Part shown: positions 19,456 through 39,250 of the stretch, piece after piece | Position numbering within the stretch: the stretch's first letter is position 1 | Layout of the letters: every line of letters starts with the position of its first letter | DNA from: a virus | Taxonomy: Duplodnaviria; Heunggongvirae; Uroviricota; Caudoviricetes | DNA: 64,000 nucleotides | IMG/VR virus record: IMGVR_UViG_2541047860_000002 | Reading direction: 5' to 3' (one strand) | The notes under the pieces: model-generated | What the model was told of the DNA's origin: nothing | Databases searched by the model: none | Seen by the model: only the letters and a program-made list of their open reading frames with translations | Program-made: the position numbers and the translations under genes

Positions 19456-19487
19456 TAACTTTAAATAATGCCAATTATTTAAAGTTA
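19456..19487. other. rox-like recombination target site (14-4-14 inverted repeat)
   Basis: TAACTTTAAATAAT-GCCA-ATTATTTAAAGTTA, perfect 14-bp arms, about 150 bp upstream of the recombinase start. Confidence 0.8.
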
Positions 19488-25554: not shown

Positions 25555-25630
25555 TGGTGGCCCCTACCGGACTTGAACCGGTGACCGTGCGATTATGAGT
25601 CGCCAGCTCTAACCACTGAGCTAAAGGGCC
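25555..25630 (-). tRNA. tRNA-Ile2-like (anticodon CAT; could be read as Met)
   Basis: 76-nt cloverleaf with CCA end; near-identical to the E. coli ileX-type sequence as recalled. Confidence 0.8.
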
Positions 25631-25784
25631 AGATTACTGTTAATTCCGCTTACGCTTTTTGCCAGGACCGCGTAAGGCTTTTGCTGCTTGCTCGACCCCA
25701 TATGCAACCACCAGCAGAAATAAAAATGTCCACCAAGGGTTCTTGTCGGCAAACGTCCAAAATTCCATCATGTTATCTATTTGG

Positions 25785-26612
25785 TTATTTCACCGGAACA
25801 AACGGAACAGCGGTATTACTGGTCATATACTGCGGTAGCGTTCCGTTCCATTTGTTGATCGCTTCCAACTCCATAACGCCGGGGTTCTGGCGCAGAGCCT
25901 CACCGCGTAAACGAATGGCATCAGCTTCAGCCTGGGCTTTTGTGCGAATGGCATCGGCCTGTCCAGCAGCTTCTGCGCGCAGCATGTTGGCTTCTGCTTC
26001 GCGTTGCTTGACTTCCTGCTCGCGTTGCAGAGTTTTCTGGTTCGCCGTGACTTTGGCATTAATGCTGTCGATAACGGTTGGCGGGTACTCCGGCTTGCCC
26101 ACATATGAGAGGCTCATTACCTGAATACCGATGGGCGTCATTTCTTCCTGAATGTCTTTAAGGGCTGCATCAAGCAATTCAGATTTGCCACCGTCGATAA
26201 ATTTGTCGGTGGTCATTTTGCTGGCTAACCGGTTCAGAGCATCTGCAACCTTCTGGCGTAGATCGGTATCAGTAATATCATCTACACCTTTGCGATAGGT
26301 CTGAAATACCGTTGTGACTTTTGCTGGATCAACCTTGTAGGCTACGCCGATGTGGTAACCAATGGTTGTTCCGTCGCTCATCTGGAAGCTGAACGGCTCA
26401 TCGTATGTCTTCATTTGCTTAAAGGTCGGGAAGATATAAACTTCAGTATTCAAGCCTGTCCAGTAGCGACCAACGCCAACTACTTCACCGATACCTTTAT
26501 CATCCCCCAGCTTATTTACTTTGATCCCTACGTTACCTGGCTCTACCCGATCGCATCCGGTCAGACATAAAGAACCAAAAATAATCGCTGCACTAATCAA
26601 CGTTTTTTTCAT
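25785..26612 (-). CDS. SPFH/band-7 domain lipoprotein
   Basis: 275 aa; lipobox LCLTGC after signal peptide; prohibitin-like core and C-terminal coiled coil. Confidence 0.7.
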   Translation of the reverse strand: MKKTLISAAIIFGSLCLTGCDRVEPGNVGIKVNKLGDDKGIGEVVGVGRYWTGLNTEVYIFPTFKQMKTYDEPFSFQMSDGTTIGYHIGVAYKVDPAKVTTVFQTYRKGVDDITDTDLRQKVADALNRLASKMTTDKFIDGGKSELLDAALKDIQEEMTPIGIQVMSLSYVGKPEYPPTVIDSINAKVTANQKTLQREQEVKQREAEANMLRAEAAGQADAIRTKAQAEADAIRLRGEALRQNPGVMELEAINKWNGTLPQYMTSNTAVPFVPVK

Positions 26613-26829
26613 TAATCAATTTCCTGGTTTTTTCACGAAAAAAGACTACTGCAAAAGCCGGGTAAATGAGCGCGAGAAGGACTCCCAACAATACAAGTAT
26701 TGTGCTGTCAGATGAGATCATATTTGGCAAAAGCCAAACATACAGAACCAGTGACACAATCAAACAGAGGACGACATAAATATATAACCGCACCCATAGC
26801 GTTCGACATTTGTTCGGATTGTTCTGCAT
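26593..26829 (-). CDS. small membrane protein
   Basis: 78 aa with two hydrophobic helices; overlaps the lipoprotein gene start. Confidence 0.4.
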   Translation of the reverse strand: MQNNPNKCRTLWVRLYIYVVLCLIVSLVLYVWLLPNMISSDSTILVLLGVLLALIYPAFAVVFFREKTRKLINEKNVD

Positions 26830-27092
26830 CCTCTCACTCCATTATTTACCGAATAAAAAAGCTGCGGTGCCTGGTGCCTCCAGGTGACGTTAACCAGTTA
26901 ACAATTAACGCCGGGATGTTTGACTTAACCACTAAGGAGGATTGTTTTAACTGTTCCGCGTGCGCTTAGCCGCATTCACCGCAATGGTAAGAGCACTTGG
27001 CTGGCTGGGCGGCGATGACGCCTGTACGCATTTGGTGATCCGGTTCTGCTTCCGGCATTCGCTTAATTAGCCAAATACTCTTAACGTTGCAC

Positions 27093-27179
27093 TGGCGGAG
27101 AGTAATGGAATCGAACCATCATCGCTTGCGCAATGGGACGGTTTTCAAGACCGCTTGAGCACCATGCTCCCTACTCTCC
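27093..27179 (-). tRNA. tRNA-Ser-like (anticodon TGA), type II
   Basis: 87 nt; 7-bp acceptor stem, CTTGAAA anticodon loop, long variable arm, CCA end; fold checked by eye only. Confidence 0.55.
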
Positions 27180-27581
27180 AGTGATTGTGATGGTCGGTGC
27201 TGAACTCCGACACAGGGTTGTAGCAAGCCCCGCAAAGCGCGCACTACTGTAGTTGCGGCACATCAGCCTGTGCATTCACCACAATGTTGAGAACACTGGT
27301 TGTCACGCTGCAACGCAACATTTATTCATAGATTGGGATATGACCCCGTTACGCCAGTGTTCTCAACGTTGTGGTGCCGGTTACGGTTCCGGCCAGGCCT
27401 CTTCCTCAACGGGGTGTTCTCCATACGGACTACCGTTTATTGGTCGTTCCTGCGGTTTATGTTGTGAAGCCAGATGCTTATCTTCTGGTTGCTTCAAAGA
27501 GCTGCACTTCATCACAACGGTAAGAGCACTCGATGCATTTAAGCCAAGCCCCATAAGGGAGAATGCCCTTACCTGTTGTGT

Positions 27582-27657
27582 TGGTGCCGGTTAACGGACT
27601 CGAACCGCTGACATCCTGCTTACAAGGCAGGCGCTCTACCAACTGAGCTAAACCGGC
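27582..27657 (-). tRNA. tRNA-Thr (anticodon TGT)
   Basis: 76 nt, canonical D and T arms, CCA end. Confidence 0.8.
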
Positions 27658-27661
27658 AATT

Positions 27662-27748
27662 TGGTGGGGAGTGATGGAGTCGAACCACCCGAGTCGCAAT
27701 GACAGTAGATTTACAGTCTACCCCGCTACCCCTACGGACTAACTCCCC
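27662..27748 (-). tRNA. tRNA-Tyr (anticodon GTA), type II
   Basis: 87 nt with long variable arm, CTGTAAA anticodon loop, CCA end. Confidence 0.7.
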
Positions 27749-27753
27749 TAAAT

Positions 27754-27830
27754 TGGCGATGGTGGGTGGATTCGAACCACCGACCGACAGCTTAGAAGGC
27801 TGCTGCTCTATCCTACTGAGCTACACCATC
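27754..27830 (-). tRNA. tRNA-Arg (anticodon TCT)
   Basis: 77 nt, CTTCTAA anticodon loop, GGTTCGAATCC T-arm, CCA end. Confidence 0.8.
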
Positions 27831-28897
27831 ACTTGCCGGGTACGTCTCCGGCGAGGGCTTCCACCTCCGTATGCTTTTCGGCGCACCGCGCCCTGGCTGC
27901 AATTCGGTAACAGGGGATGCACAACCCTGGCTTCCAGCGTGATTAGCGCCTTCAGCATGACGGGATATACCCGTAGTAGGATGTTATCCCAGAAAGCCAT
28001 TAATCAATGGCTGTTACGCGGGAGGGACGTAACAGGTAAGGGCGCTGACCAGAAAGACCTGACCCTTCTCATTCATCTGGTTAATCACACCAGCGCCCTT
28101 GCCTGTTATGCCTCCCCGTTCCCTAATACACAGACGGGGACACTCTGCGGTCGATTTTTTGACGGGGGACGACTCATACCCCGTGGCGTCTGGCTTCTTA
28201 GGCCGCTACCATCATCAGATCATCGTTTGCATTTACTTTAATGGTCGGTTTCTAAACCGCCGCAAAGTCGCTAACCATGACGAAAACCCTAAAAAAGCCC
28301 ACCCGAAGATGGGCAAATACGCTACATCTCACACAAGAAAGAAGCCGACTGCCTGAGCTGGATTCACTTTCAAATGCCCGCAGAAAGGGATCACAAGTCG
28401 GCTTCTTTCTTGATGCGGCACTCTCTCCGCCCGTCACCGCTCTGTCTCGGTTGTCGCGTTTGCCACGCCAGCCGTAACGAGGTTTAAAGTCTTTACACGT
28501 TTCCATCACTCGACTGCCGTCTGTGGCTGTTCGTTGCAGCGGGGGTGCCTCCCCCTGGGGATATCCCCGGCCTTACCCCATTCTTTCAAGACACAATGCA
28601 AGGCCACATCCGCATAGGTGCATTACCGCAACATTAAGGAGACTCAGGGCAAAAGGTAACCGCCACAAAAATCCCTATGCCTCCTTAATGTTGAAGATGT
28701 GCATTGATGATTAGATGCAGCATGTACCGTTACTCTCTGCCGGACCATCATCAATGAACACCTTAAAAAGACCTTCCGTGGCTCAACATGTATTGTCGTT
28801 TACTCCGCAAAGTGCTCTCTCTGAAACCACTTTCCGCACTAAACCTGCTGAACTTTGGCCTGCACGGTGCCAAAGCGTGCTCTTGCATTACCATCCT

Positions 28898-28906
28898 TTT
28901 CTAACA
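28898..28906 (-). promoter_or_regulatory. recurrent motif TTTCTAACA
   Basis: In the ORF-free region upstream (minus strand) of the tRNA cluster. Confidence 0.35.
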
Positions 28907-29053
28907 CTTTAATTTGTTAAATGCTGGTGGGCGAACAATAACCAATAAGTGACTATCAAGCCCAGCAAGCGAAACGTGGGTACTGCCCACCAGCAAGGAA
29001 AATTCTATGTTAAGTTATCTCCACAATCAATACATTCGAATTGTGATTTTAGA

Positions 29054-29062
29054 TTTCTAACA
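29054..29062 (-). promoter_or_regulatory. recurrent motif TTTCTAACA
   Basis: 3 bp before the stop of the 407-aa gene; oriented toward the tRNA cluster. Confidence 0.35.
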
Positions 29063-29064
29063 CA

Positions 29065-30288
29065 TTATTTCCCATAAAGATCTTCTACACCCCCATTCTT
29101 CTTATCCCATTCGTTCGCCCATACCCGGCAAGCGTCAATGATTTCCTGACGACGATCTCCTTGCATGAACGGGATGCTTTCATGGAAACAGCTTGGAATG
29201 CAGGCCACACTGAATACAGTATCAAACTCCGTCTGCTTGATTGCCTCCAGCGTCTCCGGACGCATTTTTAATTCATCGATTGGCGCATCCTTAGAGTCCA
29301 TAATCCGGCGATATAAGCGCGGAAAATCCGTCTCCAGGTACGCCATAATTTTATCTGCGAGACATTCGTCTATGTCGGTATTCCAGTCCTTTTCGAAGCC
29401 CGGCAGGCGATAGTAAAGCGGCGTTCCCCATACCGATGGGATCACATCCATCGTTAACAGGCGATTGGTTCTGATTTGTTGATGGTAATTAGCCGTCAAC
29501 AGTGCTTCGCCACGCTGCCCTGTTTCCGCAACCAGGCCGTGCGGATACTCATGGATGTAGGCAATGGCATCCCTTCCATCATACATGAGTGGAAATGTCT
29601 CTGGTCTTTGTCCCATGCCACAAGCACGGTTCAGATCGTGACCAAGCTGTGAGCACTCTCGCTTTAATGTTTCGATAATGCTCTGCGCTGTAGCCAACTT
29701 TTTACGCAGTGTGACGCCTTCGCCTTGATAATCAATGCATTGCTGATTGAGCTTGGTTAAACGCTCTTTTAGTTCCCTGCGCTCTCTTTTCAGCGTGCGG
29801 TTATCCTTCTCCGCAACATCCAGCCGCTTTGTCAGGCTTGGCGGATAGTCTTTTTTGTAACGGTTCAAATCGGCTTCGGCAGATTTACGCAGTGTATTTG
29901 CCTGTTCAAGACGCGCTTCCAGATTGCCGATCTCATTACGCATATTCGCGGCAAATTGATTAACTGCATCACCTAGGCTTTCAACTGTCGCTGATACGCC
30001 TGTGACTTGTGAAAAACGGATCAAGCCATCATTAACGGCTTGTTGGTATTCCTCAAACTGATCCACCAGCTTATTGTAATCAACTGCCCCATCATCAAGC
30101 AGCTTGTTGATTTCCGCCACCAGGTTATCTGTAGTGGCAATGACACTCTCGTGCAGTCGCTTTGACAGGTCATCACCCGGATTCCGTTTCTGTATAAGAG
30201 CGATTTGTGTGCGCAGCGTTTCAATTGCTGTCGAGATAATTTCCAGATTAGAAGTATCAGTGTGTTGACTCATTGCTGTTCCCGTCAC
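29065..30288 (-). CDS. hypothetical coiled-coil protein
   Basis: 407 aa; N-terminal ~230 aa heptad-rich, C-terminal globular part with conserved Cys/His; probable start at the internal ATG (30273). Confidence 0.5.
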   Translation of the reverse strand: MTGTAMSQHTDTSNLEIISTAIETLRTQIALIQKRNPGDDLSKRLHESVIATTDNLVAEINKLLDDGAVDYNKLVDQFEEYQQAVNDGLIRFSQVTGVSATVESLGDAVNQFAANMRNEIGNLEARLEQANTLRKSAEADLNRYKKDYPPSLTKRLDVAEKDNRTLKRERRELKERLTKLNQQCIDYQGEGVTLRKKLATAQSIIETLKRECSQLGHDLNRACGMGQRPETFPLMYDGRDAIAYIHEYPHGLVAETGQRGEALLTANYHQQIRTNRLLTMDVIPSVWGTPLYYRLPGFEKDWNTDIDECLADKIMAYLETDFPRLYRRIMDSKDAPIDELKMRPETLEAIKQTEFDTVFSVACIPSCFHESIPFMQGDRRQEIIDACRVWANEWDKKNGGVEDLYGK

Positions 30289-30294
30289 TTTGTT

Positions 30295-30311
30295 AAATTA
30301 GTTTTCTAACA
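30295..30311 (-). promoter_or_regulatory. recurrent motif TGTTAGAAAACTAATTT (minus strand)
   Basis: Full 17-mer about 20 bp upstream of the probable start of the 407-aa gene. Confidence 0.45.
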
Positions 30312-30386
30312 TATTTTATTAGTTTGATGACGGTATCGGAAGATGCAATAAACAAAAAACCCGCTAATTGGCTGGTTTTTATGCAA

Positions 30387-30701
30387 TTACTGTGTTGCAG
30401 CCTGATAAATAAGATACGCGATAAATACAGGTACGATGGCCCATTGCAGCAATGAAAGTAGCCTCATTACTGTTATTGGGGTAACTCCATCCACGTATTG
30501 TTTCTCTGACATTTTCCCTAACCAACTAACCGACAACAGTGCCGAGTTTTCCCCCAATTCCAGCTCTCTGAGAGCTTCACGGATTAACGGCGCTGTCACA
30601 GCCTTAACCGGCGTGCTCAACGTGATACTCCGCGTCCTCCCCGCATCGTCAGCGAACGCCAGACTCACATGATATTTTTTGCTCAATGCACAAACTCCCA
30701 A
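30387..30701 (-). CDS. hypothetical protein with C-terminal membrane helix
   Basis: 104-aa ORF. Confidence 0.4.
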   Translation of the reverse strand: MGVCALSKKYHVSLAFADDAGRTRSITLSTPVKAVTAPLIREALRELELGENSALLSVSWLGKMSEKQYVDGVTPITVMRLLSLLQWAIVPVFIAYLIYQAATQ

Positions 30702-32263: not shown

Positions 32264-35200
32264 TTAAGCCGCATCGGCGATTATTTTACGCAGTTCATCT
32301 ACCGAGTAACGCGTAGATACCATCCACGCCGGACGGTCAAAGTCCACATCCGCGACAGGATTCACTTCAAAATTCCAGAAACGCCCGCCAATCTTCTTAA
32401 TCGCGTCTTTGGCGTTCCGTATTGTCGAGGAACCTGGTTGGTCGGCAATGAGATAAACCGCGCCAACGTCCTCGCTGACGCTCCACCAGCGCCCGCGAAC
32501 ACGCGCCTTAGCGCGAATAGGCTTATCATTAACCACAATGATATAGTCATCATTTGCCGCTTCATCAGCTCTGGCTTCAGCCACTGCCGCCTGCTCTTCT
32601 CTTTTGCTTTCAGCCTGCTCAAGCCTTTCCGCGATCTCTGATTCAGTGGCCCCGCCGTTTTTCAGCGATACATAGTCCTGCCACGTTGCCGATTTGAGCG
32701 TATCCGGCAACTCATTCACATAGTCGCCATCTTTCAACTCACGGGCGCGGCGGGTAGCCATTTCTACCAGGCGATTAACAGAAACAGCATCAGCAAAATC
32801 GTCCTTACTAATGTGTTTTTCATCAAATGCATTGATGACAGCCCCCACCTTAATCCACTGTGCTGCCGGTGATTCCAGGGGGTTATCAGCCTGGACAATG
32901 GCGAGTTTCGCTCCATCTACCCCATTATTCGCCAACTGTTCCAGCGCCGCCCATCCATCTGCATCACTGAGTGATTTATATTGCTCAAACAATGCATCGC
33001 GCCAGGCCACCAGCGCAGAACGTGTTTTTTCGATCTTCGCCTTAATTTTCGCGATCTTGACCTGATTAAACATCCGTTCAATATCATCGATATTGCTAAA
33101 GGCTTTCATCCTGCCCTGGAATAAACGGTATGCCAGCACGGTCCTCCAGAATGATTCCAGACCTTCTCCGGACGGTTTACGGAACAAGCTAAGAATATCT
33201 TCAGAAGTGACTTTATTAAGCGAACGACCTGACAGACCACGCCCAGCCATCCAGTTTTCGAACTCCTTGGCAACATCATCCATCGTTGCCTGTGCGCCCC
33301 ATGCCTGCATTCCCTGGATGTAATCATACCCATACAATGCCTGGAGGAATCCCTCTCCGTCCACGATATTCAGCGGGTTATCACTGGCTTGTATTTTTGC
33401 CACTTCACGCTTCAGCGCCTCGTCGTTGCCATCAGGATATATCCATCGTTCAGGTGCTATATCCGATGCTCGCCCGATTTTTTGGCCTATCACGCCATCA
33501 TAGGTCGATGACAGCGCGATCTGCCCATCATCTGTGCGATAGGCCCAGTATTTAATAGCTGATCCACCGCCCCATGCATTACCAGGTTTACCAGCAATAA
33601 CATTCATTACCCCATTGCGAATAGCATCATAGAACTGATCGCGAGTAAGTATTGTTGATAGCTGGTGGCACTGAACACCACGCGCAGCCGTTGCGCGCGA
33701 TTCAGCAACCCCCTCTTCAAAAGTTACCGCTTCAATCACAGAGTCAAACGGCAATGTAACGATTGACCCCGGTGATCGAGCGTAACGACTTGCTCTATCC
33801 AGCCAGGCGATACGACAGATGTATTGTGCTTTTTCACCGTCAATTTTTTCCACCCGGACAATCGCTGTTGTTTCGCGATCATCAATGACTGCACGGTAAT
33901 AACTACCTTTATGCAACAGGATATTCTTGTCAGTGCGCATATATTCCTGTGGGTTCTGAATAACATCGATACTGATATCCAGCACACCAGACTTAATAGC
34001 GCGCTCCACATCACCACGAGAGCGTTTCATTATGGTATCCGCGTCTTTTGCCCTGGTGATCGCAAACCGCAGCACCCGCGCACGTTTTCTGTAGCTACTC
34101 AACTGCTCAAGCGCGTATTTTTGCCCATTCCTGTTCGTACCCGCTTTTATCAGGTCGTCAAGATTGCGCTGGTAATACTCTATCTGTTCCATCGCGCTTT
34201 TCAGTTCTGTCTCCATCATGCCGATATCTTTTCCGGCGGCGTTTGCCGCTTTCAGGTAGATATCGAGAGCATTGTTGGCCTCGCGCTGTGCTTTCAGTTT
34301 CAGACGTTCTTCACGCTCTTGCGCCTGGCGAGCCATGATTGCGCGGCGTTCTTCCGGGTTTGCCGCCAGCATAATGGCGCGTTCATCAGCATCATCCACA
34401 TCACCATTGGCGATCTCTGACATGTCGGAGGTCATCACCATCTTGATCCAGTCTTTCTTACGTTTCAGCGTATCCAGACGGAAGTCGTCGAATGTGCCTT
34501 TGCCACAATAGTAGTGAACATTGACCTTCTCTTGCGGTGAACCTACGCGCGCACCGCGCCCATTTCGTTGGTCGATACTGGCTGGTGTCCAGGGTAGTGT
34601 CAGGTGGTGGATATCGGTTGTCCCGATGTGCAGGTTAATACCTACTTCAGCCTTCTTGTTACAGATTATGATGCGCGTGCGACCTTCGTTATAGTCGGCG
34701 GCAATACCTTCCATGCCCTCAAGGCCAGCATCATTTTTAGCTGAGAGATAATCCTCATATTGGGCAAGTTTGCTGTAGTAGGTTTCCCATGCCCCTTCTT
34801 TGTATTCACCGTTTTTGTTTGGAGTAGGTTCGGTCGGCTTATTCACCTTCTTCAGCTTGATGCCGCCAGCCTGGCTAACTGTCGTCGCATTGATAATGCC
34901 AATCTCCTGCTCCGGCATTTGCAGTGCACTGGCGATAATACGGCGCAGCTTCTGGTGCTGGGCTTTTTCATCAATAAAGACGATCTGCTTACCGTTCTTC
35001 AGACCTTCACGAAGATTTTCGATCAGCGCGGCATACTTCGGCGGGATGGGGTGCGATACCTGCTGCATATCAATACCGGCAGCCGCAATGGCCTTCAGTA
35101 TTTCAGCTTCCAGTTCAATGCTGGCACGTATTTCAACATGCGTCGGATGTTCACTAAAAGCGGTCTTCACTACCTTGCTGGTACGCGTACTGACCAGCCC

Positions 35201-38200
35201 GCCAGCGCCGTCTTCCTCGGCCTCATCAACATCATCTGCCACTTTACCACCAGCTACTTTTGGCAAGGCATCAGCAATAGCTTTTACCTGGTCTGCAAGC
35301 TCAACGGGGAACTGGAATGTAATCGCACTGGCATACAGATCCGGGTCTATAGCAACCTTGTCCATGTCACGGATGATGGAGAAGATGAAATCATCCGGTT
35401 TGTCGTTAGTGATATGCCCGTTTTCATCGACTGTCAGCTCATCATTGCGACTTAACTCCTGAGCACGCTTACGAAGTTCTTCATAAGCAGACTCCTGCTC
35501 CCCTGTCATCGGGATCTGCAAGGTGTTCTCGATGATGTCGGGAATTTTAACCGTCGCTCCGACATCTGCGGCAGTCTTCAGAGTGGTCCAACGATGGAAA
35601 ATACCACGCAGGCCATCAAGGTTCTGGAAGCCCACCAGCCCCTGCTTCTCTTCCACTTCCCCGGAAATTTTCTGGACCTGAACTGTGGCTGTTTTGCCAA
35701 ACACACGAACGAAATCATCAGGCGTAATGATGCCCATGCGCATCCACTCTTCCTGCGGAATGACAGTAGACAGCATGTTGAAGGCATCAATCGGACTGTT
35801 CACCAGCGGAGTTGCCGTCAGCATGACTACACCACGTCCGTTGTTGCGTTTCATCATGTACGCAGCTTTTACAGCCATGTCGCGGGCCATCTTGGATACT
35901 GCCGGGTTAGGCAAATATGCCAGTTGTCCCGCTTCACGCCCGGCATTAAAGGAGTTGCGGTAGTTATGCCCCTCGTCGGCAATCACGCTATCGAAGTTCA
36001 TATCCTCAAAGTACGGGATATTCTGCTTCTTCGTTGTACCGGTATTCGCGGCCTGATCCTTAATCTTGTTCTTCTTCTGTGCATCACGGTGTTTGCCAGA
36101 CGCCAGGTCAAGACGCCCCATTTCCACAGCATTAAAGACAGCTTGCTGTGAGTTCTCCTCGATGGTTTTTTCTCGTAGCGGGATAGACGCGAATTGTTCT
36201 TTTGTCATGATGACCGTTCGCCAATTTGACGACGGGATCATGTTCATGCGCTGAACGATAACGGCGCTGGCGGACTCTTTCACAACATTTCTGGTAAGAG
36301 GCTGCCCGTTACTGTCGAGGCGTGGTTCGCCATTTTCATCAAGCACCGGCGCGGTCAGAATATTTCCGCTGTCATCACGAACTTCATCCAAACCGATAAA
36401 CATCATATTGGCGAAGGCATCAGCACTGTAGAAACTCTGTGCCTCGTGATACCAGTTCTGATAAACCGCCTTCGGAACAACAATACACGTGCGTTTAGTG
36501 CGACCTGTTTCGAAGTTATACGCCTCAAGCGCAAGCGCGGTCGTGGTTTTACCCAGCCCGGTACCAAATCCCATGATGCCGCGCCCATCTTCTGACAAGC
36601 GACGAACTTCTTCATTTTGATAAGTCAGAGGAATGCGCTTTCCACTAATCCCTTCCAGGCCAAGCGGTGCGTTAGAGTGCGTGAACGGAATGAAGCCATT
36701 GAATGCGTCGTTATAGTCACGGGCTATCTGATCCGCCTGCGGGTGGGTGCGTAACCAGTCGTTAAAGCTAACTTCCAGTTGAGCAATTTTATCCAGGTAC
36801 TCGTTAGCGTTCTGCCCACGCGGTTTAACACCGTTCAGGTAGTTTTCTAACTGGTTCAGGAAGCCGTCTTTATTGTTGGCCTTCTTGAACTCATTCCCGT
36901 TTTTGCCGTTTACGGTTCGTAGCTGATAGCCGGTAAATACCCCGTCCTTACCTTCGTAATCGTCCGGAGATACCAGAATGCCATCGACGACCTTCAGATC
37001 AGGTTCAGTGTACTTAAACTCGTCATAGCCCTGCTCTGCCAGGAACTCTTTTATCAAGCGGCGATCCAGCCAGCGGGCATTCAGATTAACGGTGACTTTA
37101 TTTAGTGGCGTGAAAATGCGTTTCTCTTCGATTTTCGCCAACTGACGCTCAAAGTTCGCTTTCTGCTCACCTGTTGACGCATCACGCCAGCCCACCAGCA
37201 ATGCTGTTTTGGTTGCAATATCGCCGCTGGTGGCGCGGTCCATCGGCAGCAGGCAGCCATACCCATCAATAGCGATATCATCAAATTTCGCTAGGTATTC
37301 AAGGGCCGCGTCGTCGTCCTCTGGCAATTCACCAGCAAACGCCTCACGAAAGTCGCCCAGCGTTATAGGATTAAGGGCTACATCACTGAAAAGATGTGCT
37401 ATCACTTGTTCAGGACGTGTAAAGTCAATACCGGCAGCACCATCCGTTACATCAAGTCGCCCTGCCAGAAGGTCAGAAGTGGAACCATCCTGTTTCACAT
37501 TGCCAGTGAACGTCATCCAGTTTTTAGCGCCAGCTTCAGCAAGCCCATTCAGCTTAATCGCGTGCGGTGGTCCATACTTCGCAACTTCTGCTGCCGCCAG
37601 GCGGGATGCATCTGCCAGTTTGTCATCAACGTTCACCCCCAGGTTACGCAAATCAAGTGCCTTGTTGATCAACTGCCCTATCAGCGCACCGCGCATAACG
37701 CGCTCTCTGTCTTTTTCTCGCTGCTTGCCAGCAAAGCGAATCATTGCTGCCACTTCATCACTGACAACCGATGGATAGTCGGACGCGATCGCCGATATCT
37801 GGTCCCATGACAAAGCCAGAATCCCGTTTGTTGACTGGAACGCGATCTGCAGATCGCCAAACGTCGAAACACCATATCGACTTACATCAAGCGCGGAGGA
37901 TTTGGTTGTCGTGTCCTTAACCCATTTCAGGCCATCAAACTCATGCCAGATACCGCCTACAAGGCGTTTATCGCCCACTTTCGCGCCCTGCCATGCCTGA
38001 GTAGTTACGCCGAGCAAATCCCAATTGATGCGACTATCAAAGCGACGAGATAGCGCGGTTTTCATCGACTCATTGGATACACGGCCGTCTTTTTTCACCA
38101 CTAGGGTATTGCGGAAGCTGGTACGTTCCATGTCGCCGTAAACAAACCGCTTCCCTTCGGTTGTAAACCATTTTCCTTTGAGGAAGGTATCCCAAAGGAC

Positions 38201-39100
38201 GTTTGCCGATTTGAGCGTGGCATCATCCGTGTCGGGGATCATCTCCAGGAAGGTTTCCGGGTGTTTACGCAATACCCATACGTCCACCACGGTATCTGTA
38301 CCGGATTCGCTGAACGTACCAGAAGGCATACGATGTGCGGCCAAAAATTCCGCTTTACGGCTGACTTTATCGCGCAATTTTTTGTATTTCGTACCATCGG
38401 TCATGCCATTCGGCACCACCAATACGATAAGCCCACCAGGCTTAACCTTGTCGATCGTGCGCAACACAAAATAATTGCCAACGTTCTTCTCGTTTGCATA
38501 TGCCGGATCAAGCCCGGCAACGCCGGAACGCCCTTCACCAAACGGTACGTTACCAACAGCGTGGTCATACATTGCATCTTTCGCCGCCAGCGCCTCAAAC
38601 GCCCCGATATTCACATCGTCTTCCGGGTGCAAAAGCTGGTTTATTCGACCAGAAATCGGAGACAGTTCGGCGCTGGTCATTATCATGCCCTGCCGTTTTG
38701 TCTCCTGGAAAATACCTGTGCCCGCTGATGGTTCCAGTACGTGCCCGCCATCAATACCGTAGTCAGCAAACAGATCCCATATACCTTCAGCCATAAACTG
38801 TGGCGTGTAGTATTCGTATTGGCTGCCCTCACCATCTGTCAGGCCGCCTTCACCGGTATACCCGGCAAGAATCTGACGTTGTTCGTCAGTTAATTTCGCC
38901 CCATCGAAGCCGGGCGGAAGGGAATTAAGAAGATTTACTGCGGCGTTGTTTGCTGCACGGCGTGTTTTCTGAATACTGACGCCATCGGCTTTCCTGACGC
39001 CAAAGGTCGCAACAGCACGTAATTTATGCAACCGACTAACAATTTCAATCAGTTCGCCTAAGCTGGAGGCTTCACTGATTGAATGAAGTAATTTGTCCAA
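32264..39100 (-). CDS. darB: DarB-like anti-restriction protein (N6-adenine methyltransferase plus DEAH helicase)
   Basis: 2278 aa; methyltransferase motifs (EPSAGTG, NVPFG), Walker A GFGTGLGKT, DEGH box; size and architecture match P1 DarB as recalled. Confidence 0.85.
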   Translation of the reverse strand: MDKLLHSISEASSLGELIEIVSRLHKLRAVATFGVRKADGVSIQKTRRAANNAAVNLLNSLPPGFDGAKLTDEQRQILAGYTGEGGLTDGEGSQYEYYTPQFMAEGIWDLFADYGIDGGHVLEPSAGTGIFQETKRQGMIMTSAELSPISGRINQLLHPEDDVNIGAFEALAAKDAMYDHAVGNVPFGEGRSGVAGLDPAYANEKNVGNYFVLRTIDKVKPGGLIVLVVPNGMTDGTKYKKLRDKVSRKAEFLAAHRMPSGTFSESGTDTVVDVWVLRKHPETFLEMIPDTDDATLKSANVLWDTFLKGKWFTTEGKRFVYGDMERTSFRNTLVVKKDGRVSNESMKTALSRRFDSRINWDLLGVTTQAWQGAKVGDKRLVGGIWHEFDGLKWVKDTTTKSSALDVSRYGVSTFGDLQIAFQSTNGILALSWDQISAIASDYPSVVSDEVAAMIRFAGKQREKDRERVMRGALIGQLINKALDLRNLGVNVDDKLADASRLAAAEVAKYGPPHAIKLNGLAEAGAKNWMTFTGNVKQDGSTSDLLAGRLDVTDGAAGIDFTRPEQVIAHLFSDVALNPITLGDFREAFAGELPEDDDAALEYLAKFDDIAIDGYGCLLPMDRATSGDIATKTALLVGWRDASTGEQKANFERQLAKIEEKRIFTPLNKVTVNLNARWLDRRLIKEFLAEQGYDEFKYTEPDLKVVDGILVSPDDYEGKDGVFTGYQLRTVNGKNGNEFKKANNKDGFLNQLENYLNGVKPRGQNANEYLDKIAQLEVSFNDWLRTHPQADQIARDYNDAFNGFIPFTHSNAPLGLEGISGKRIPLTYQNEEVRRLSEDGRGIMGFGTGLGKTTTALALEAYNFETGRTKRTCIVVPKAVYQNWYHEAQSFYSADAFANMMFIGLDEVRDDSGNILTAPVLDENGEPRLDSNGQPLTRNVVKESASAVIVQRMNMIPSSNWRTVIMTKEQFASIPLREKTIEENSQQAVFNAVEMGRLDLASGKHRDAQKKNKIKDQAANTGTTKKQNIPYFEDMNFDSVIADEGHNYRNSFNAGREAGQLAYLPNPAVSKMARDMAVKAAYMMKRNNGRGVVMLTATPLVNSPIDAFNMLSTVIPQEEWMRMGIITPDDFVRVFGKTATVQVQKISGEVEEKQGLVGFQNLDGLRGIFHRWTTLKTAADVGATVKIPDIIENTLQIPMTGEQESAYEELRKRAQELSRNDELTVDENGHITNDKPDDFIFSIIRDMDKVAIDPDLYASAITFQFPVELADQVKAIADALPKVAGGKVADDVDEAEEDGAGGLVSTRTSKVVKTAFSEHPTHVEIRASIELEAEILKAIAAAGIDMQQVSHPIPPKYAALIENLREGLKNGKQIVFIDEKAQHQKLRRIIASALQMPEQEIGIINATTVSQAGGIKLKKVNKPTEPTPNKNGEYKEGAWETYYSKLAQYEDYLSAKNDAGLEGMEGIAADYNEGRTRIIICNKKAEVGINLHIGTTDIHHLTLPWTPASIDQRNGRGARVGSPQEKVNVHYYCGKGTFDDFRLDTLKRKKDWIKMVMTSDMSEIANGDVDDADERAIMLAANPEERRAIMARQAQEREERLKLKAQREANNALDIYLKAANAAGKDIGMMETELKSAMEQIEYYQRNLDDLIKAGTNRNGQKYALEQLSSYRKRARVLRFAITRAKDADTIMKRSRGDVERAIKSGVLDISIDVIQNPQEYMRTDKNILLHKGSYYRAVIDDRETTAIVRVEKIDGEKAQYICRIAWLDRASRYARSPGSIVTLPFDSVIEAVTFEEGVAESRATAARGVQCHQLSTILTRDQFYDAIRNGVMNVIAGKPGNAWGGGSAIKYWAYRTDDGQIALSSTYDGVIGQKIGRASDIAPERWIYPDGNDEALKREVAKIQASDNPLNIVDGEGFLQALYGYDYIQGMQAWGAQATMDDVAKEFENWMAGRGLSGRSLNKVTSEDILSLFRKPSGEGLESFWRTVLAYRLFQGRMKAFSNIDDIERMFNQVKIAKIKAKIEKTRSALVAWRDALFEQYKSLSDADGWAALEQLANNGVDGAKLAIVQADNPLESPAAQWIKVGAVINAFDEKHISKDDFADAVSVNRLVEMATRRARELKDGDYVNELPDTLKSATWQDYVSLKNGGATESEIAERLEQAESKREEQAAVAEARADEAANDDYIIVVNDKPIRAKARVRGRWWSVSEDVGAVYLIADQPGSSTIRNAKDAIKKIGGRFWNFEVNPVADVDFDRPAWMVSTRYSVDELRKIIADAA

Positions 39101-39250
39101 AGGATTTCCCCCTCTAAACCGTAAAAATTCCGCTATGCGGTACGGTTGAGAGGGTATGGAGAATGTTATTTTCAGGGGGACGATACTACCGTCAAAATCA
39201 CATACTCCCCATAGTTTGCCTACTTATTAACCCATGACCGGGAGAAAAAT

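What the first reader, a model, noticed from the sequence alone, without database searches (positions are those of the whole stretch)
29065..30311. Stand-alone 407-aa coiled-coil protein with its own motif-marked promoter
The N-terminal half is heptad-rich and the C-terminal half has conserved Cys/His; the full 17-bp motif sits about 20 bp upstream of the probable start and a second copy sits at the 3' end. No family recognised.
Basis: seen in the sequence. Interest (0 to 1): 0.45.

Follow-up and report, generated by a model that had tools for sequence, protein, structure and literature searches.

The report
PmgS gene of D6-like phage-plasmid
The flagged gene is the already catalogued but functionally unknown "PmgS" protein of a D6/P1-type phage-plasmid, apparently switched off by the prophage repressor through the 17-bp motif, and it is very unlikely to be the capsid scaffold that one database record calls it.

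Summary
The ORF, its heptad-rich N-terminal half and both motif copies are real. The window is a D6-like P1-family phage-plasmid, 96-99% identical to Escherichia phage D6. The ORF is D6 orf9, a member of the PmgS family (PHROG 1660, E=1e-146; 21% identity over the full length to P1 PmgS). So "no family recognised" is wrong, although the family's function is unknown. The probable start is ATG 30273 (402 aa), not GTG 30288 (407 aa).

The 17-bp motif TGTTAGAAAWCTAAWWT is not special to this gene. It sits where P1 has C1-repressor operators (c1, lpa, repL, icd/ant, ref, hrdC-dmt and others). A different box, AAATCACA-N7-TAnnnT, marks the structural and lysis operons and is absent here. The motif is therefore most likely the operator of the D6-type C1 repressor. 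The second copy belongs to the downstream tRNA-tci unit.

P1 pmgS is dispensable and is not listed among virion proteins, so a scaffold role is unlikely. Best guess: a repressor-controlled accessory adaptor for DNA or transcription machinery. This is ordinary and already known as a gene.

The parts
29065..30273 (-). pmgS-like CDS, 402 aa from ATG 30273 with stop at 29065-29067. An alternative in-frame GTG at 30288 would give 407 aa.
   Evidence: (PHROG 1660, E 1.4e-146). dN/dS is 0.045 against the 88%-identity lineage.
29623..30273 (-). Residues 1-217: coiled-coil / long-helix region, with the family-conserved motifs D65-Y66-N67-x-L69...E74 and P144.
   Evidence: The matches to SMC, myosin, Rad50 and DivIVA models are compositional only.
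29284..29622 (-). Residues 218-330: alpha/beta domain with no convincing fold match. Family-conserved residues are G219, H264, R268, W282, P285, W297, P318 and R323.
29068..29283 (-). Residues 331-402: helix-hairpin-helix domain of the RNAP alpha-CTD / RAD51 N-terminal type. In this clade the hairpin is degenerate: PFMQG replaces the family's K-G-h-G.
30295..30311 (-). 17-bp motif TGTTAGAAAACTAATTT, 21 nt upstream of the ATG. Inferred operator of the D6-type C1 repressor, overlapping the pmgS promoter region.
   Evidence: It is perfectly conserved in the 88% lineage while the flanks diverge. P1 has C1 operators OpmgRa/b ahead of pmgR-pmgS.
30354..30380 (-). Hairpin followed by a T-run, 7 nt after the pmgR stop; a probable intrinsic terminator that makes pmgS its own unit. 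The stem carries one mismatch in this window and is perfect (CCCGC/GCGGG) in D6 and in the 88% lineage.
   Evidence: (-13.3 kcal/mol, z -1.84). The consensus terminator scan did not call it.
29046..29062 (-). Second copy of the 17-bp motif (TGTTAGAAATCTAAAAT), starting 3 nt after the pmgS stop. It belongs to the downstream unit (tRNA cluster, then tciA/B), not to pmgS.
   Evidence: In P1 the operator Obanab heads the dicF-like/tRNA/tci/ban unit.
29002..29030 (-). Sigma-70-like promoter TTGATT-N17-TAGAAT of the downstream unit, 15 nt below the second motif copy. It is conserved in the 88% lineage.

Best explanation
This is the PmgS orthologue of a D6-like, P1-family phage-plasmid. It is a conserved, non-virion accessory gene transcribed as its own unit.

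The 17-bp motif in front of it is most likely the operator of this element's C1 prophage repressor. The gene would then be silent in the plasmid-prophage state and switched on when C1 is inactivated. It would not wait for the Lpa-dependent late programme. This step is inferred from positional homology with P1 operators and from the absence of the late box.

The protein is an acidic, elongated molecule. It has about 217 residues of coiled coil, which presumably drives oligomerisation. These carry a compact alpha/beta domain of unknown fold and a C-terminal helix-hairpin-helix domain of the RNAP alpha-CTD / RAD51-N type (shown at the level of profile and predicted structure).

The most likely mode of action is inferred and of low certainty. 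It would act as a coiled-coil adaptor whose C-terminal module docks onto DNA or onto a DNA-bound machine (RNA polymerase, or replication/recombination/methylation proteins) during early lytic development. It would help fitness without being required for making plaques. It is not the capsid scaffold.
For: Identity:
- The window is 96-99% identical to phage D6.
- The protein matches PHROG 1660 over its full length at E 1.4e-146.
- It aligns end to end with P1 PmgS.
- The synteny darB...pmgR-pmgS...lpa-pacAB-c1 is kept in distant P1-like contigs.

Real, constrained gene:
- dN/dS is 0.045 overall and 0.007 in the HhH domain.
- pmgS is among the 21 most conserved genes of 77 P1-like elements (PMC9603915).

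Operator:
- The motif occurs 15 times against 0.6 expected.
- In D6 and the window it lies upstream of c1, lpa, repL, icd/ant, ref (an inverted pair), hrdC-dmt (an inverted pair), pmgS and the tRNA-tci unit.
- These are the places where P1 has Oc1, OpmgR, Odmt and Oban and, from my recollection of the P1 literature rather than from regions I fetched, also Olpa, OkilA/repL, Oc4 and Oref.
- Like P1's operator it is 17 bp and asymmetric, and it occurs in either orientation.
- The window's C1 is only 21% identical to P1 C1, so a different operator sequence is expected.
- A separate box, AAATCACA-N7-TAnnnT, marks prt, gene 23, R, pmgB/sit, gene 7, ddrB, mat and the lysozyme gene. It resembles P1 LP26 (AAATGACTA-N4-TAGAAT) and is absent before pmgS.
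- Lpa itself is well conserved.

Structure:
- The models have pLDDT 87 (whole protein) and 92.8 (C-terminal half).
- The family profile matches the RAD51 N-domain at 6e-6 and alpha-CTD at 1.5e-5.
- hhalign against E. coli alpha-CTD gives E 1.9e-4.
- HHH_5 or RNA_pol_A_CTD Pfam hits occur in 12 and 8 of 54 relatives.

Not a scaffold:
- The P1 pmgS in-frame deletion is not among the five essential knock-outs. The other 24 showed no plaquing or antirestriction defect (PMC9024508).
- CRISPRi gives EOP 1.2 (PMC10695390).
- Only PmgC and PmgG among the Pmg proteins were found in virions.
- P1's scaffold is proposed to be the capsid protein's own N-terminal domain.
- The gene is not next to the portal, protease or capsid genes.
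- In non-P1 phages it sits among early, replication or methylase genes.
Against: - No experiment exists on the D6-type C1 protein or its operator. The assignment is by analogy with P1.
- No sigma-70 promoter of good consensus is detectable at the upstream copy.
- A C1 operator does not exclude a morphogenetic role. P1 pmgR shares the C1-controlled promoter with pmgS and is needed for head completion. D6 gene 23 also has a motif copy nearby.
- In this clade the HhH hairpin has lost the G-h-G signature, the alpha-CTD DNA-contact positions R265/N268 are Glu here, and the domain is net acidic. Direct DNA binding is therefore doubtful for this particular protein.
- The middle domain gives no functional clue.
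- Dispensability was shown for P1 PmgS (21% identical) under laboratory conditions, not for the D6-type protein.
Confidence: 0.55

Rival explanations
1. It is the prohead scaffolding protein or another head-morphogenesis factor, as GenBank MF356679 ('putative prohead scaffolding protein') and PHROG 1660 ('head morphogenesis') label it.
For: The annotation labels say so. The protein is acidic and largely alpha-helical and elongated, like known scaffolds. Its neighbour pmgR is needed for head completion in P1. Scaffolds are absent from mature virions, so absence from the P1 proteome is not decisive.
Against: P1 pmgS is dispensable by in-frame deletion and by CRISPRi, whereas scaffolds are essential. 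P1's scaffold is proposed to be the cleaved 120-residue N-terminus of gp23. The gene has no late-promoter box. It is far from the portal, protease and capsid genes. It has a conserved beta-containing domain and an HhH domain. Homologues in other phages lie among early and methylase genes or next to an integrase. It matches no known scaffold family or structure.
Confidence: 0.1
2. The 17-bp motif is the element's late (Lpa-dependent) promoter, making this a late gene with a dedicated late promoter.
For: The motif ends in a -10-like TAAWWT, and both copies around the gene are on the gene's strand. One copy lies upstream of capsid gene 23 in D6.
Against: Copies sit directly upstream of c1, lpa, repL, icd/ant, ref and hrdC-dmt. 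These are early or immunity genes that carry C1 operators in P1. The motif occurs in either orientation relative to the gene it precedes, and as overlapping inverted pairs. A different box resembling P1 late promoters marks the structural and lysis operons.
Confidence: 0.07
3. PmgS is an RNA polymerase alpha-CTD mimic or decoy on a coiled-coil stalk. It would retune host or phage transcription after derepression, for example by competing for alpha-CTD partners or by working with Lpa.
For: The best structural match of the C-terminal domain is alpha-CTD. NusA acidic-repeat domains, which bind alpha-CTD, are also hit. The domain is acidic and lacks the DNA-contact residues. In one lineage pmgS lies immediately upstream of lpa. 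The HhH domain is under very strong constraint.
Against: The similarity is generic for small (HhH)2 domains, and RAD51-N scores equally well. Sequence identity is 13-15%. Adjacency to lpa is not general. There is no experimental hint of it.
Confidence: 0.12
4. It is a DivIVA-like membrane or division-site protein, as PGAP names it in several plasmid records, or an SMC/Rad50-like protein.
For: Some plasmid records carry the label 'DivIVA domain-containing protein'. There are weak hits to DivIVA, SMC, Rad50 and JetC models.
Against: All hits fall in the coiled coil and lie far below the curated cut-offs (DivIVA 20.4 against 28 bits; SMC 25.8 against 567 bits). There is no ATPase head, and the conserved C-terminal domains are unrelated.
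Confidence: 0.03

Closest known systems
P1 PmgS (P1_gp093; PHROG 1660) and D6 orf9
   Same: D6 orf9 is 99.5% identical. P1 PmgS aligns end to end (21% identity, E 3e-13), with the same coiled coil, globular domain and C-terminal HhH-like layout. Both lie next to pmgR. P1 has C1 operators (OpmgRa/b) ahead of pmgR-pmgS.
   Different: In P1, pmgS is co-transcribed with pmgR. Here a hairpin plus T-run and a separate operator copy split them. The operator sequence differs completely from P1's ATTGCTCTAATAAATTT.
RNA polymerase alpha C-terminal domain / RAD51 N-terminal domain / NusA AR domains (small (HhH)2 folds; Pfam PF03118, PF14520)
   Different: This protein itself has no Pfam HhH hit. Its hairpin is PFMQG, the R265/N268 equivalents are Glu, and the domain is acidic. 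It is attached to a coiled coil and an unknown domain, not to an RNAP or recombinase core.
Phage scaffolding proteins (e.g. P22 gp8, phi29 gp7, lambda Nu3) - comparison from general knowledge
   Same: Both are elongated, acidic and helix-rich.
   Different: Scaffolds are essential, expressed late and encoded beside the portal, protease and capsid genes. The P1 orthologue here is dispensable, the gene lacks the late box and lies elsewhere, and the protein carries conserved globular domains.
P1 C1 repressor operators (17-bp asymmetric sites, Op/O series)
   Same: Same length, asymmetry, copy number, variable orientation, occurrence as overlapping inverted pairs, and location before the same set of genes.
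   Different: The sequence differs, and the cognate repressor is only 21% identical to P1 C1. Binding is untested.

Membership tests
PmgS family (PHROG 1660) | Full-length match to the family HMM | tested here: met
   E 1.4e-146, residues 1-401 against profile positions 1-404 of 405.
PmgS family (PHROG 1660) | End-to-end alignment with the name-giving protein, P1 PmgS | tested here: met
   BLASTP over residues 11-395 against 17-415, 21% identity, E 3e-13.
PmgS family (PHROG 1660) | P1-type gene neighbourhood (pmgR upstream; lpa-pacAB-c1 downstream) | tested here: met
   PmgR homology was confirmed.
Phage capsid scaffolding proteins | Encoded in the head module beside the portal, protease or major capsid gene | tested here: not met
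   Portal and protease are about 12 kb away and the capsid gene is about 40 kb away, with immunity, replication and dar genes in between.
Phage capsid scaffolding proteins | Required for production of infectious particles | tested here: not met
   This rests on literature for the P1 orthologue only. The deletion is not among the five essential knock-outs, and CRISPRi gives EOP 1.2. It has not been tested for the D6-type protein.
Phage capsid scaffolding proteins | Late (Lpa-dependent) expression signal | tested here: not met
   The late-type box AAATCACA-N7-TAnnnT is present before the structural operons and absent before pmgS.
Phage capsid scaffolding proteins | Sequence or fold match to a characterised scaffold | tested here: not met
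Helix-hairpin-helix domain (alpha-CTD / RAD51-N type) | Fold of two HhH-like helix pairs | tested here: met
Helix-hairpin-helix domain (alpha-CTD / RAD51-N type) | G-h-G hairpin and basic DNA-contact residues | tested here: not met
   The hairpin here is PFMQG and the R265/N268 equivalents are E340/E343. The signature is present in 34 of 54 relatives.
Helix-hairpin-helix domain (alpha-CTD / RAD51-N type) | DNA or partner-protein binding | not testable with these tools
   This needs EMSA or pull-down experiments.
DivIVA (PF05103) | Score above Pfam's gathering threshold | tested here: not met
   20.4 bits against a cut-off of 28, and the match covers the coiled-coil segment only.
C1-repressor operator (P1 type) | 17-bp asymmetric site repeated before the immunity and early operons that carry operators in P1 | tested here: met
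C1-repressor operator (P1 type) | Bound by the cognate C1 protein, with repression of the adjacent promoter | not testable with these tools
   There are no data for D6-type C1, and the D6 genome paper could not be read.
Cys/His metal-binding domain | Set of at least 3-4 Cys/His conserved across the family | tested here: not met
   Only H264 (45/54) and C382 (28/54) recur.

The most novel reading that the evidence does not exclude
PmgS proteins are a phage and phage-plasmid family of coiled-coil-mounted alpha-CTD-like modules that act on the host transcription or DNA-methylation/recombination machinery straight after repressor loss. In the D6/P1 clade the HhH domain has turned acidic and lost its DNA-contact signature, so there it could be an RNA polymerase alpha-CTD decoy. 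In canonical G-h-G members, which are translationally coupled to Dam methylases, it could be a DNA-tethering partner of the methylase.
Probability: 0.1. Interest if true: 0.55.

Novelty: already known. Interest (0 to 1): 0.2.

Why it matters
As a gene, this adds nothing new. It is 99.5% identical to an annotated gene of phage D6 and belongs to the P1 PmgS family. Three points are useful.

1. The 'scaffold / head morphogenesis' and 'DivIVA' labels that circulate for this family are unsupported and probably wrong.
2. The family has a recognisable alpha-CTD/RAD51-N-like C-terminal domain. That gives a testable handle on one of the most conserved yet dispensable genes of P1-like phage-plasmids.
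3. The 17-bp motif gives a working map of the D6-type C1 regulon, and the AAATCACA box gives a map of its late promoters. Both help in reading the many D6-like plasmids found in E. coli and Salmonella.

Tried and rejected
- Pfam, NCBIfam and PADLOC scans of the protein gave only sub-threshold coiled-coil matches (ERM, DivIVA, SMC, Rad50, JetC, LmuB). I rejected these as compositional.
- Foldseek of the whole model against the PDB, and of the C-terminal model against BFVD, gave nothing at E <= 0.001. The afdb50 library was unavailable.
- tblastn against phage genomes did not recover P1 pmgS at E 1e-5. Pairwise BLASTP and the PHROG profile were needed to link the two.
- I looked for a P1-type late box (AAATGACTA) in the window and found only scattered one-mismatch hits. 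A de novo k-mer search then found AAATCACA instead.
- The AAATCACA overlap with the 3' motif copy is not conserved in the 88% lineage, so it is probably coincidental.
- An attempt to find the equivalent operator in distant P1-like contigs L006 and L007 was too noisy to interpret.
- An Rfam search of the 1.2-kb leader below the gene found no DicF-like or other family above threshold.
- The D6 genome paper (Gilcrease & Casjens 2018) and the P1 genome paper (Lobocka 2004) are not held and could not be read.
- The P1 transcriptome papers give no early/late class for pmgS.
Full report
WHAT THE WINDOW IS. A megablast of 28900-30500 finds Escherichia phage D6 at 99.0% identity and 111 non-mobilizable E. 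coli, Salmonella and Shigella plasmids of about 90 kb. The whole window is collinear with D6 at 96-99% identity, and window position 19472 corresponds to D6 position 1. D6 is a P1-like plasmid prophage. Its record annotates c1, pacAB, lpa, tciAB, tRNAs, 'PmgS-like' (orf9), pmgR, pmgM, ulx, darB, ant/icd, repL, pro and prt in the same order as the window.

THE OBSERVATION. The ORF is real. It lies on the minus strand at 29065..30288 and gives 407 aa if the GTG is used. The in-frame ATG at 30273 (402 aa) is the more likely start. It is preceded by a conserved GGGAAC. The GTG is not conserved in an 88%-identity lineage. PGAP aa, and the identical database cluster is 402 aa with 922 members.

The N-terminal half has a significant heptad signal: 0.427 against 0.276 +/- 0.033 in shuffles, with 0 of 300 shuffles reaching the observed value. 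The C-terminal half has none. AlphaFold2 (54-sequence alignment, mean pLDDT 87) predicts four long helices up to residue 217.

The 17-bp motif TGTTAGAAAWCTAAWWT occurs exactly at 30311->30295, 21 nt before the ATG, and at 29062->29046, starting 3 nt after the stop. Both copies are on the gene's strand. Its 14-bp core occurs 15 times in the window against 0.61 expected.

They are not conserved across the family, where only H264 (45/54) and C382 (28/54) persist.

WHAT THE GENE IS. The protein matches PHROG 1660 ('PmgS-like head morphogenesis') over its full length at E 1.4e-146, as does P1 PmgS. The two proteins align end to end at 21% identity, E 3e-13. A profile search of 1.84 billion representatives finds only 87 clusters, nearly all 350-470 aa and matched over the full length. 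PmgS is therefore a small family with a fixed architecture.

The gene is under strong purifying selection. Against the 88% lineage, dN/dS is 0.045 overall, 0.08 in the coiled coil, 0.03 in the middle domain and 0.007 in the C-terminal domain. pmgS is among the 21 most conserved genes in 77 P1-like phage-plasmids (PMC9603915).

WHAT THE MOTIF IS. It is not specific to this gene. Taking the window and the complete D6 genome together, copies with up to 3 mismatches lie at these places:
- 11 nt upstream of the c1 start;
- about 80 bp upstream of lpa;
- upstream of repL;
- upstream of icd/ant;
- as an overlapping inverted pair in the ref/orf88 divergent region;
- as an inverted pair upstream of hrdC-dmt;
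- between ppp and the pdcB-like gene;
- between cre and orf117;
- in the gene 23/orf52 divergent region;
- before pmgS;
- before the tRNA-tci unit.

The P1 regions I fetched place C1-repressor operators before dmt, ban (the unit that starts with a dicF-like region and tRNAs and includes tciABC), gene 26, ppp, pmgR-pmgS (OpmgRa/b, 'controls expression of pmgR and pmgS'), pmgT, and c1/coi. Operators before lpa, kilA-repL, c4-icd-ant and ref are from my recollection of the P1 literature, since I did not fetch those regions. P1 operators are 17 bp, asymmetric (ATTGCTCTAATAAATTT), occur in either orientation, and sometimes form overlapping inverted pairs. This motif behaves in exactly the same way.

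The window's C1 is only 21% identical to P1 C1, so a different operator sequence is expected.

A second, unrelated box marks the structural and lysis operons. AAATCACA-N7-TAnnnT lies upstream of prt, ddrB, the lysozyme gene, mat, R, pmgB/sit, gene 23 and gene 7. It resembles the annotated P1 late promoter LP26, AAATGACTA-N4-TAGAAT, and Lpa is well conserved (E 5e-57). This box is absent upstream of pmgS.

I therefore read the 17-bp motif as the operator of the D6-type C1 repressor, not as a late promoter. This is inferred and has not been shown by binding data.

In the 88% lineage the block ACTAATAAAATATGTTAGAAAACTAATTT is perfectly conserved while both flanks diverge. No good sigma-70 consensus is detectable there. 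Candidate -10 hexamers (TAAAAT, TAATTT) lie just upstream of the operator or inside it.

A hairpin plus T-run at 30354-30380, 7 nt after the pmgR stop, separates pmgS from pmgR. The stem is perfect in D6 and in the 88% lineage and has one mismatch here. The 'stand-alone' description therefore holds.

The 3' copy of the motif sits 15 nt above a conserved TTGATT-N17-TAGAAT promoter. That promoter points at the tRNA cluster, which is on the minus strand, and then at tciA/B. It is the counterpart of P1 Oban, not part of pmgS.

THE PROTEIN. A model of residues 215-402 is very confident (pLDDT 92.8, pTM 0.87).

The last roughly 60 residues form a helix-hairpin-helix domain. Four lines of evidence support this:
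- The family profile hits the RAD51 N-terminal domain (6e-6) and RNAP alpha-CTD (1.5e-5) among PDB sequences.
- hhalign against E. coli alpha-CTD gives E 1.9e-4.
- Twelve and eight of 54 relatives hit Pfam HHH_5 and RNA_pol_A_CTD respectively.

Thirty-four of 54 relatives keep a canonical K-G-h-G hairpin. The D6 and P1 clades have lost it: the sequence here is PFMQG. The positions equivalent to the alpha-CTD DNA contacts R265/N268 are Glu here, and the domain is net -4.

The middle domain (218-330) consists of four strands plus two helices, with conserved G219, H264, R268, W282, P285, W297, P318 and R323. It has no convincing structural neighbour. The whole protein is acidic at net -12, against a family mean of -11.

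GENOMIC CONTEXT ELSEWHERE. Distant P1-like contigs keep the order darB ... small genes ... pmgS ... lpa-pacAB-c1. In one lineage pmgS lies immediately upstream of lpa.

Outside P1-like elements the gene lies in early or accessory regions:
- In Vibrio phage douglas 12A4 it heads an operon with a DNA methyltransferase, opposite Ant, methylase and DnaC-like genes.
- In an integrated prophage it is followed by a 74-aa protein, a Dam methylase and the integrase.
- In another contig it follows a 575-aa DNA methylase.
- In a 65-kb plasmid-like contig it lies near replication and ParA genes.

The small proteins downstream in two of these contexts are homologous to each other (E 3e-9). None of these contexts is a head module.

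FUNCTIONAL EVIDENCE FROM P1. An in-frame pmgS deletion was made. Only the pmgA, B, C, G and R knock-outs were essential. The other 24 knock-outs had no plaquing or antirestriction defect (PMC9024508). CRISPRi knock-down of pmgS gave EOP 1.2 and was classed non-essential (PMC10695390).

Only PmgC and PmgG among the Pmg proteins were detected in virions. The authors state that no scaffold has been identified in P1, and they propose that the cleaved N-terminal 120 residues of the capsid protein serve that role. The 'pmg' name itself only means 'putative morphogenetic function'.

INTERPRETATION. Three things are shown: family membership, architecture, and the statistics and placement of the motif. 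Two are inferred: that the motif is the C1 operator, and that the gene is expressed on derepression without Lpa.

The mechanism is inferred with low certainty. I propose that the protein is a coiled-coil adaptor whose C-terminal alpha-CTD/RAD51-N-like module docks on DNA or on a DNA-bound machine early in lytic growth.

The scaffold reading is unlikely at about 0.1, though not excluded. Three caveats keep it open. P1 pmgR shares the C1-controlled promoter with pmgS and acts in head completion. Scaffolds are absent from mature virions, so the proteome result is not decisive. The dispensability data come from a protein only 21% identical.

The PGAP 'DivIVA' label rests on a sub-threshold coiled-coil match of 20.4 bits against a cut-off of 28.

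VERDICT. This is an already known and annotated gene of unknown function. The claim that no family is recognised, the implied gene-specific promoter mark, and the conserved Cys/His do not hold. Interest is low at 0.2. The modest gains are a corrected annotation, a domain assignment that can be tested, and working maps of the D6-type C1 operators and late promoters.

Noticed in passing
window 496-489(-), 39195-39202(+), 45222-45215(-), 46669-46662(-); D6 38135, 45511, 54144, 67413 (all -): The box AAATCACA-N7-TAnnnT lies upstream of mat, the lysozyme gene (orf16), prt and ddrB, and in D6 also upstream of R, pmgB/sit, gene 23 and gene 7. It is a candidate Lpa-dependent late promoter and resembles P1 LP26 (AAATGACTA-N4-TAGAAT).
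   Followed up: partly
window 4345, 4982/5011, 8187, 18260, 19670, 24103, 41257, 42448: The other copies of the 17-bp motif outline a putative D6-type C1 regulon: c1, lpa, repL, icd/ant, a ref/orf88 inverted pair, ppp/pdcB, cre/orf117 and the 3' end of ref. D6 also has an inverted pair before hrdC-dmt and a copy before gene 23.
   Followed up: partly
window 25555-27830 (-): The tRNA cluster holds Met, Ser(UGA; scores 44.6 bits on the tRNA-Sec model, below its cut-off of 47), Thr, Tyr and Arg. This differs from D6's annotated Ser/Thr/Asn set. Window 25772-27752 matches D6 poorly or not at all, so the tRNA cargo is a variable cassette.
   Followed up: no
window 27831-29045 (-): About 1.2 kb between the second operator/promoter and the first tRNA has no convincing ORF. 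It is well conserved in the part compared with the 88% lineage (window 28600-29064). No Rfam family reaches threshold; the only hit is a weak permuted-tmRNA-like match at 28198-28371, E 0.06. It may be a long leader or an uncharacterised RNA, in the position of P1's dicF-like region.
   Followed up: partly
window 26863-26983 (-): There is a match to the gammaproteobacterial sRNA STnc100 (39.4 bits, E 4e-6, below the gathering score of 47) just downstream of the tRNA cluster.
   Followed up: no
L005 6401-8362; L011 7001-8837; L013 1187-4514: Outside P1-like elements, PmgS-like genes abut or overlap Dam or other DNA methyltransferase genes. In L005 and L011 the cluster also includes a small 68-74 aa protein, and these two small proteins are homologous to each other (E 3e-9). 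This is a recurrent PmgS-methylase linkage of unknown meaning.
   Followed up: partly
window 30354-30380 (-): The hairpin between pmgR and pmgS has a C-to-A change that breaks one stem pair. D6 and the 88% lineage both keep the perfect CCCGC/GCGGG stem. This could allow more read-through from pmgR in this plasmid.
   Followed up: no
window 32264-39100 (-): A 2278-aa DarB-like methyltransferase/helicase ORF lies about 2 kb upstream on the same strand. A DarB-like giant gene also precedes pmgS in distant P1-like contigs (L006-L009).
   Followed up: no
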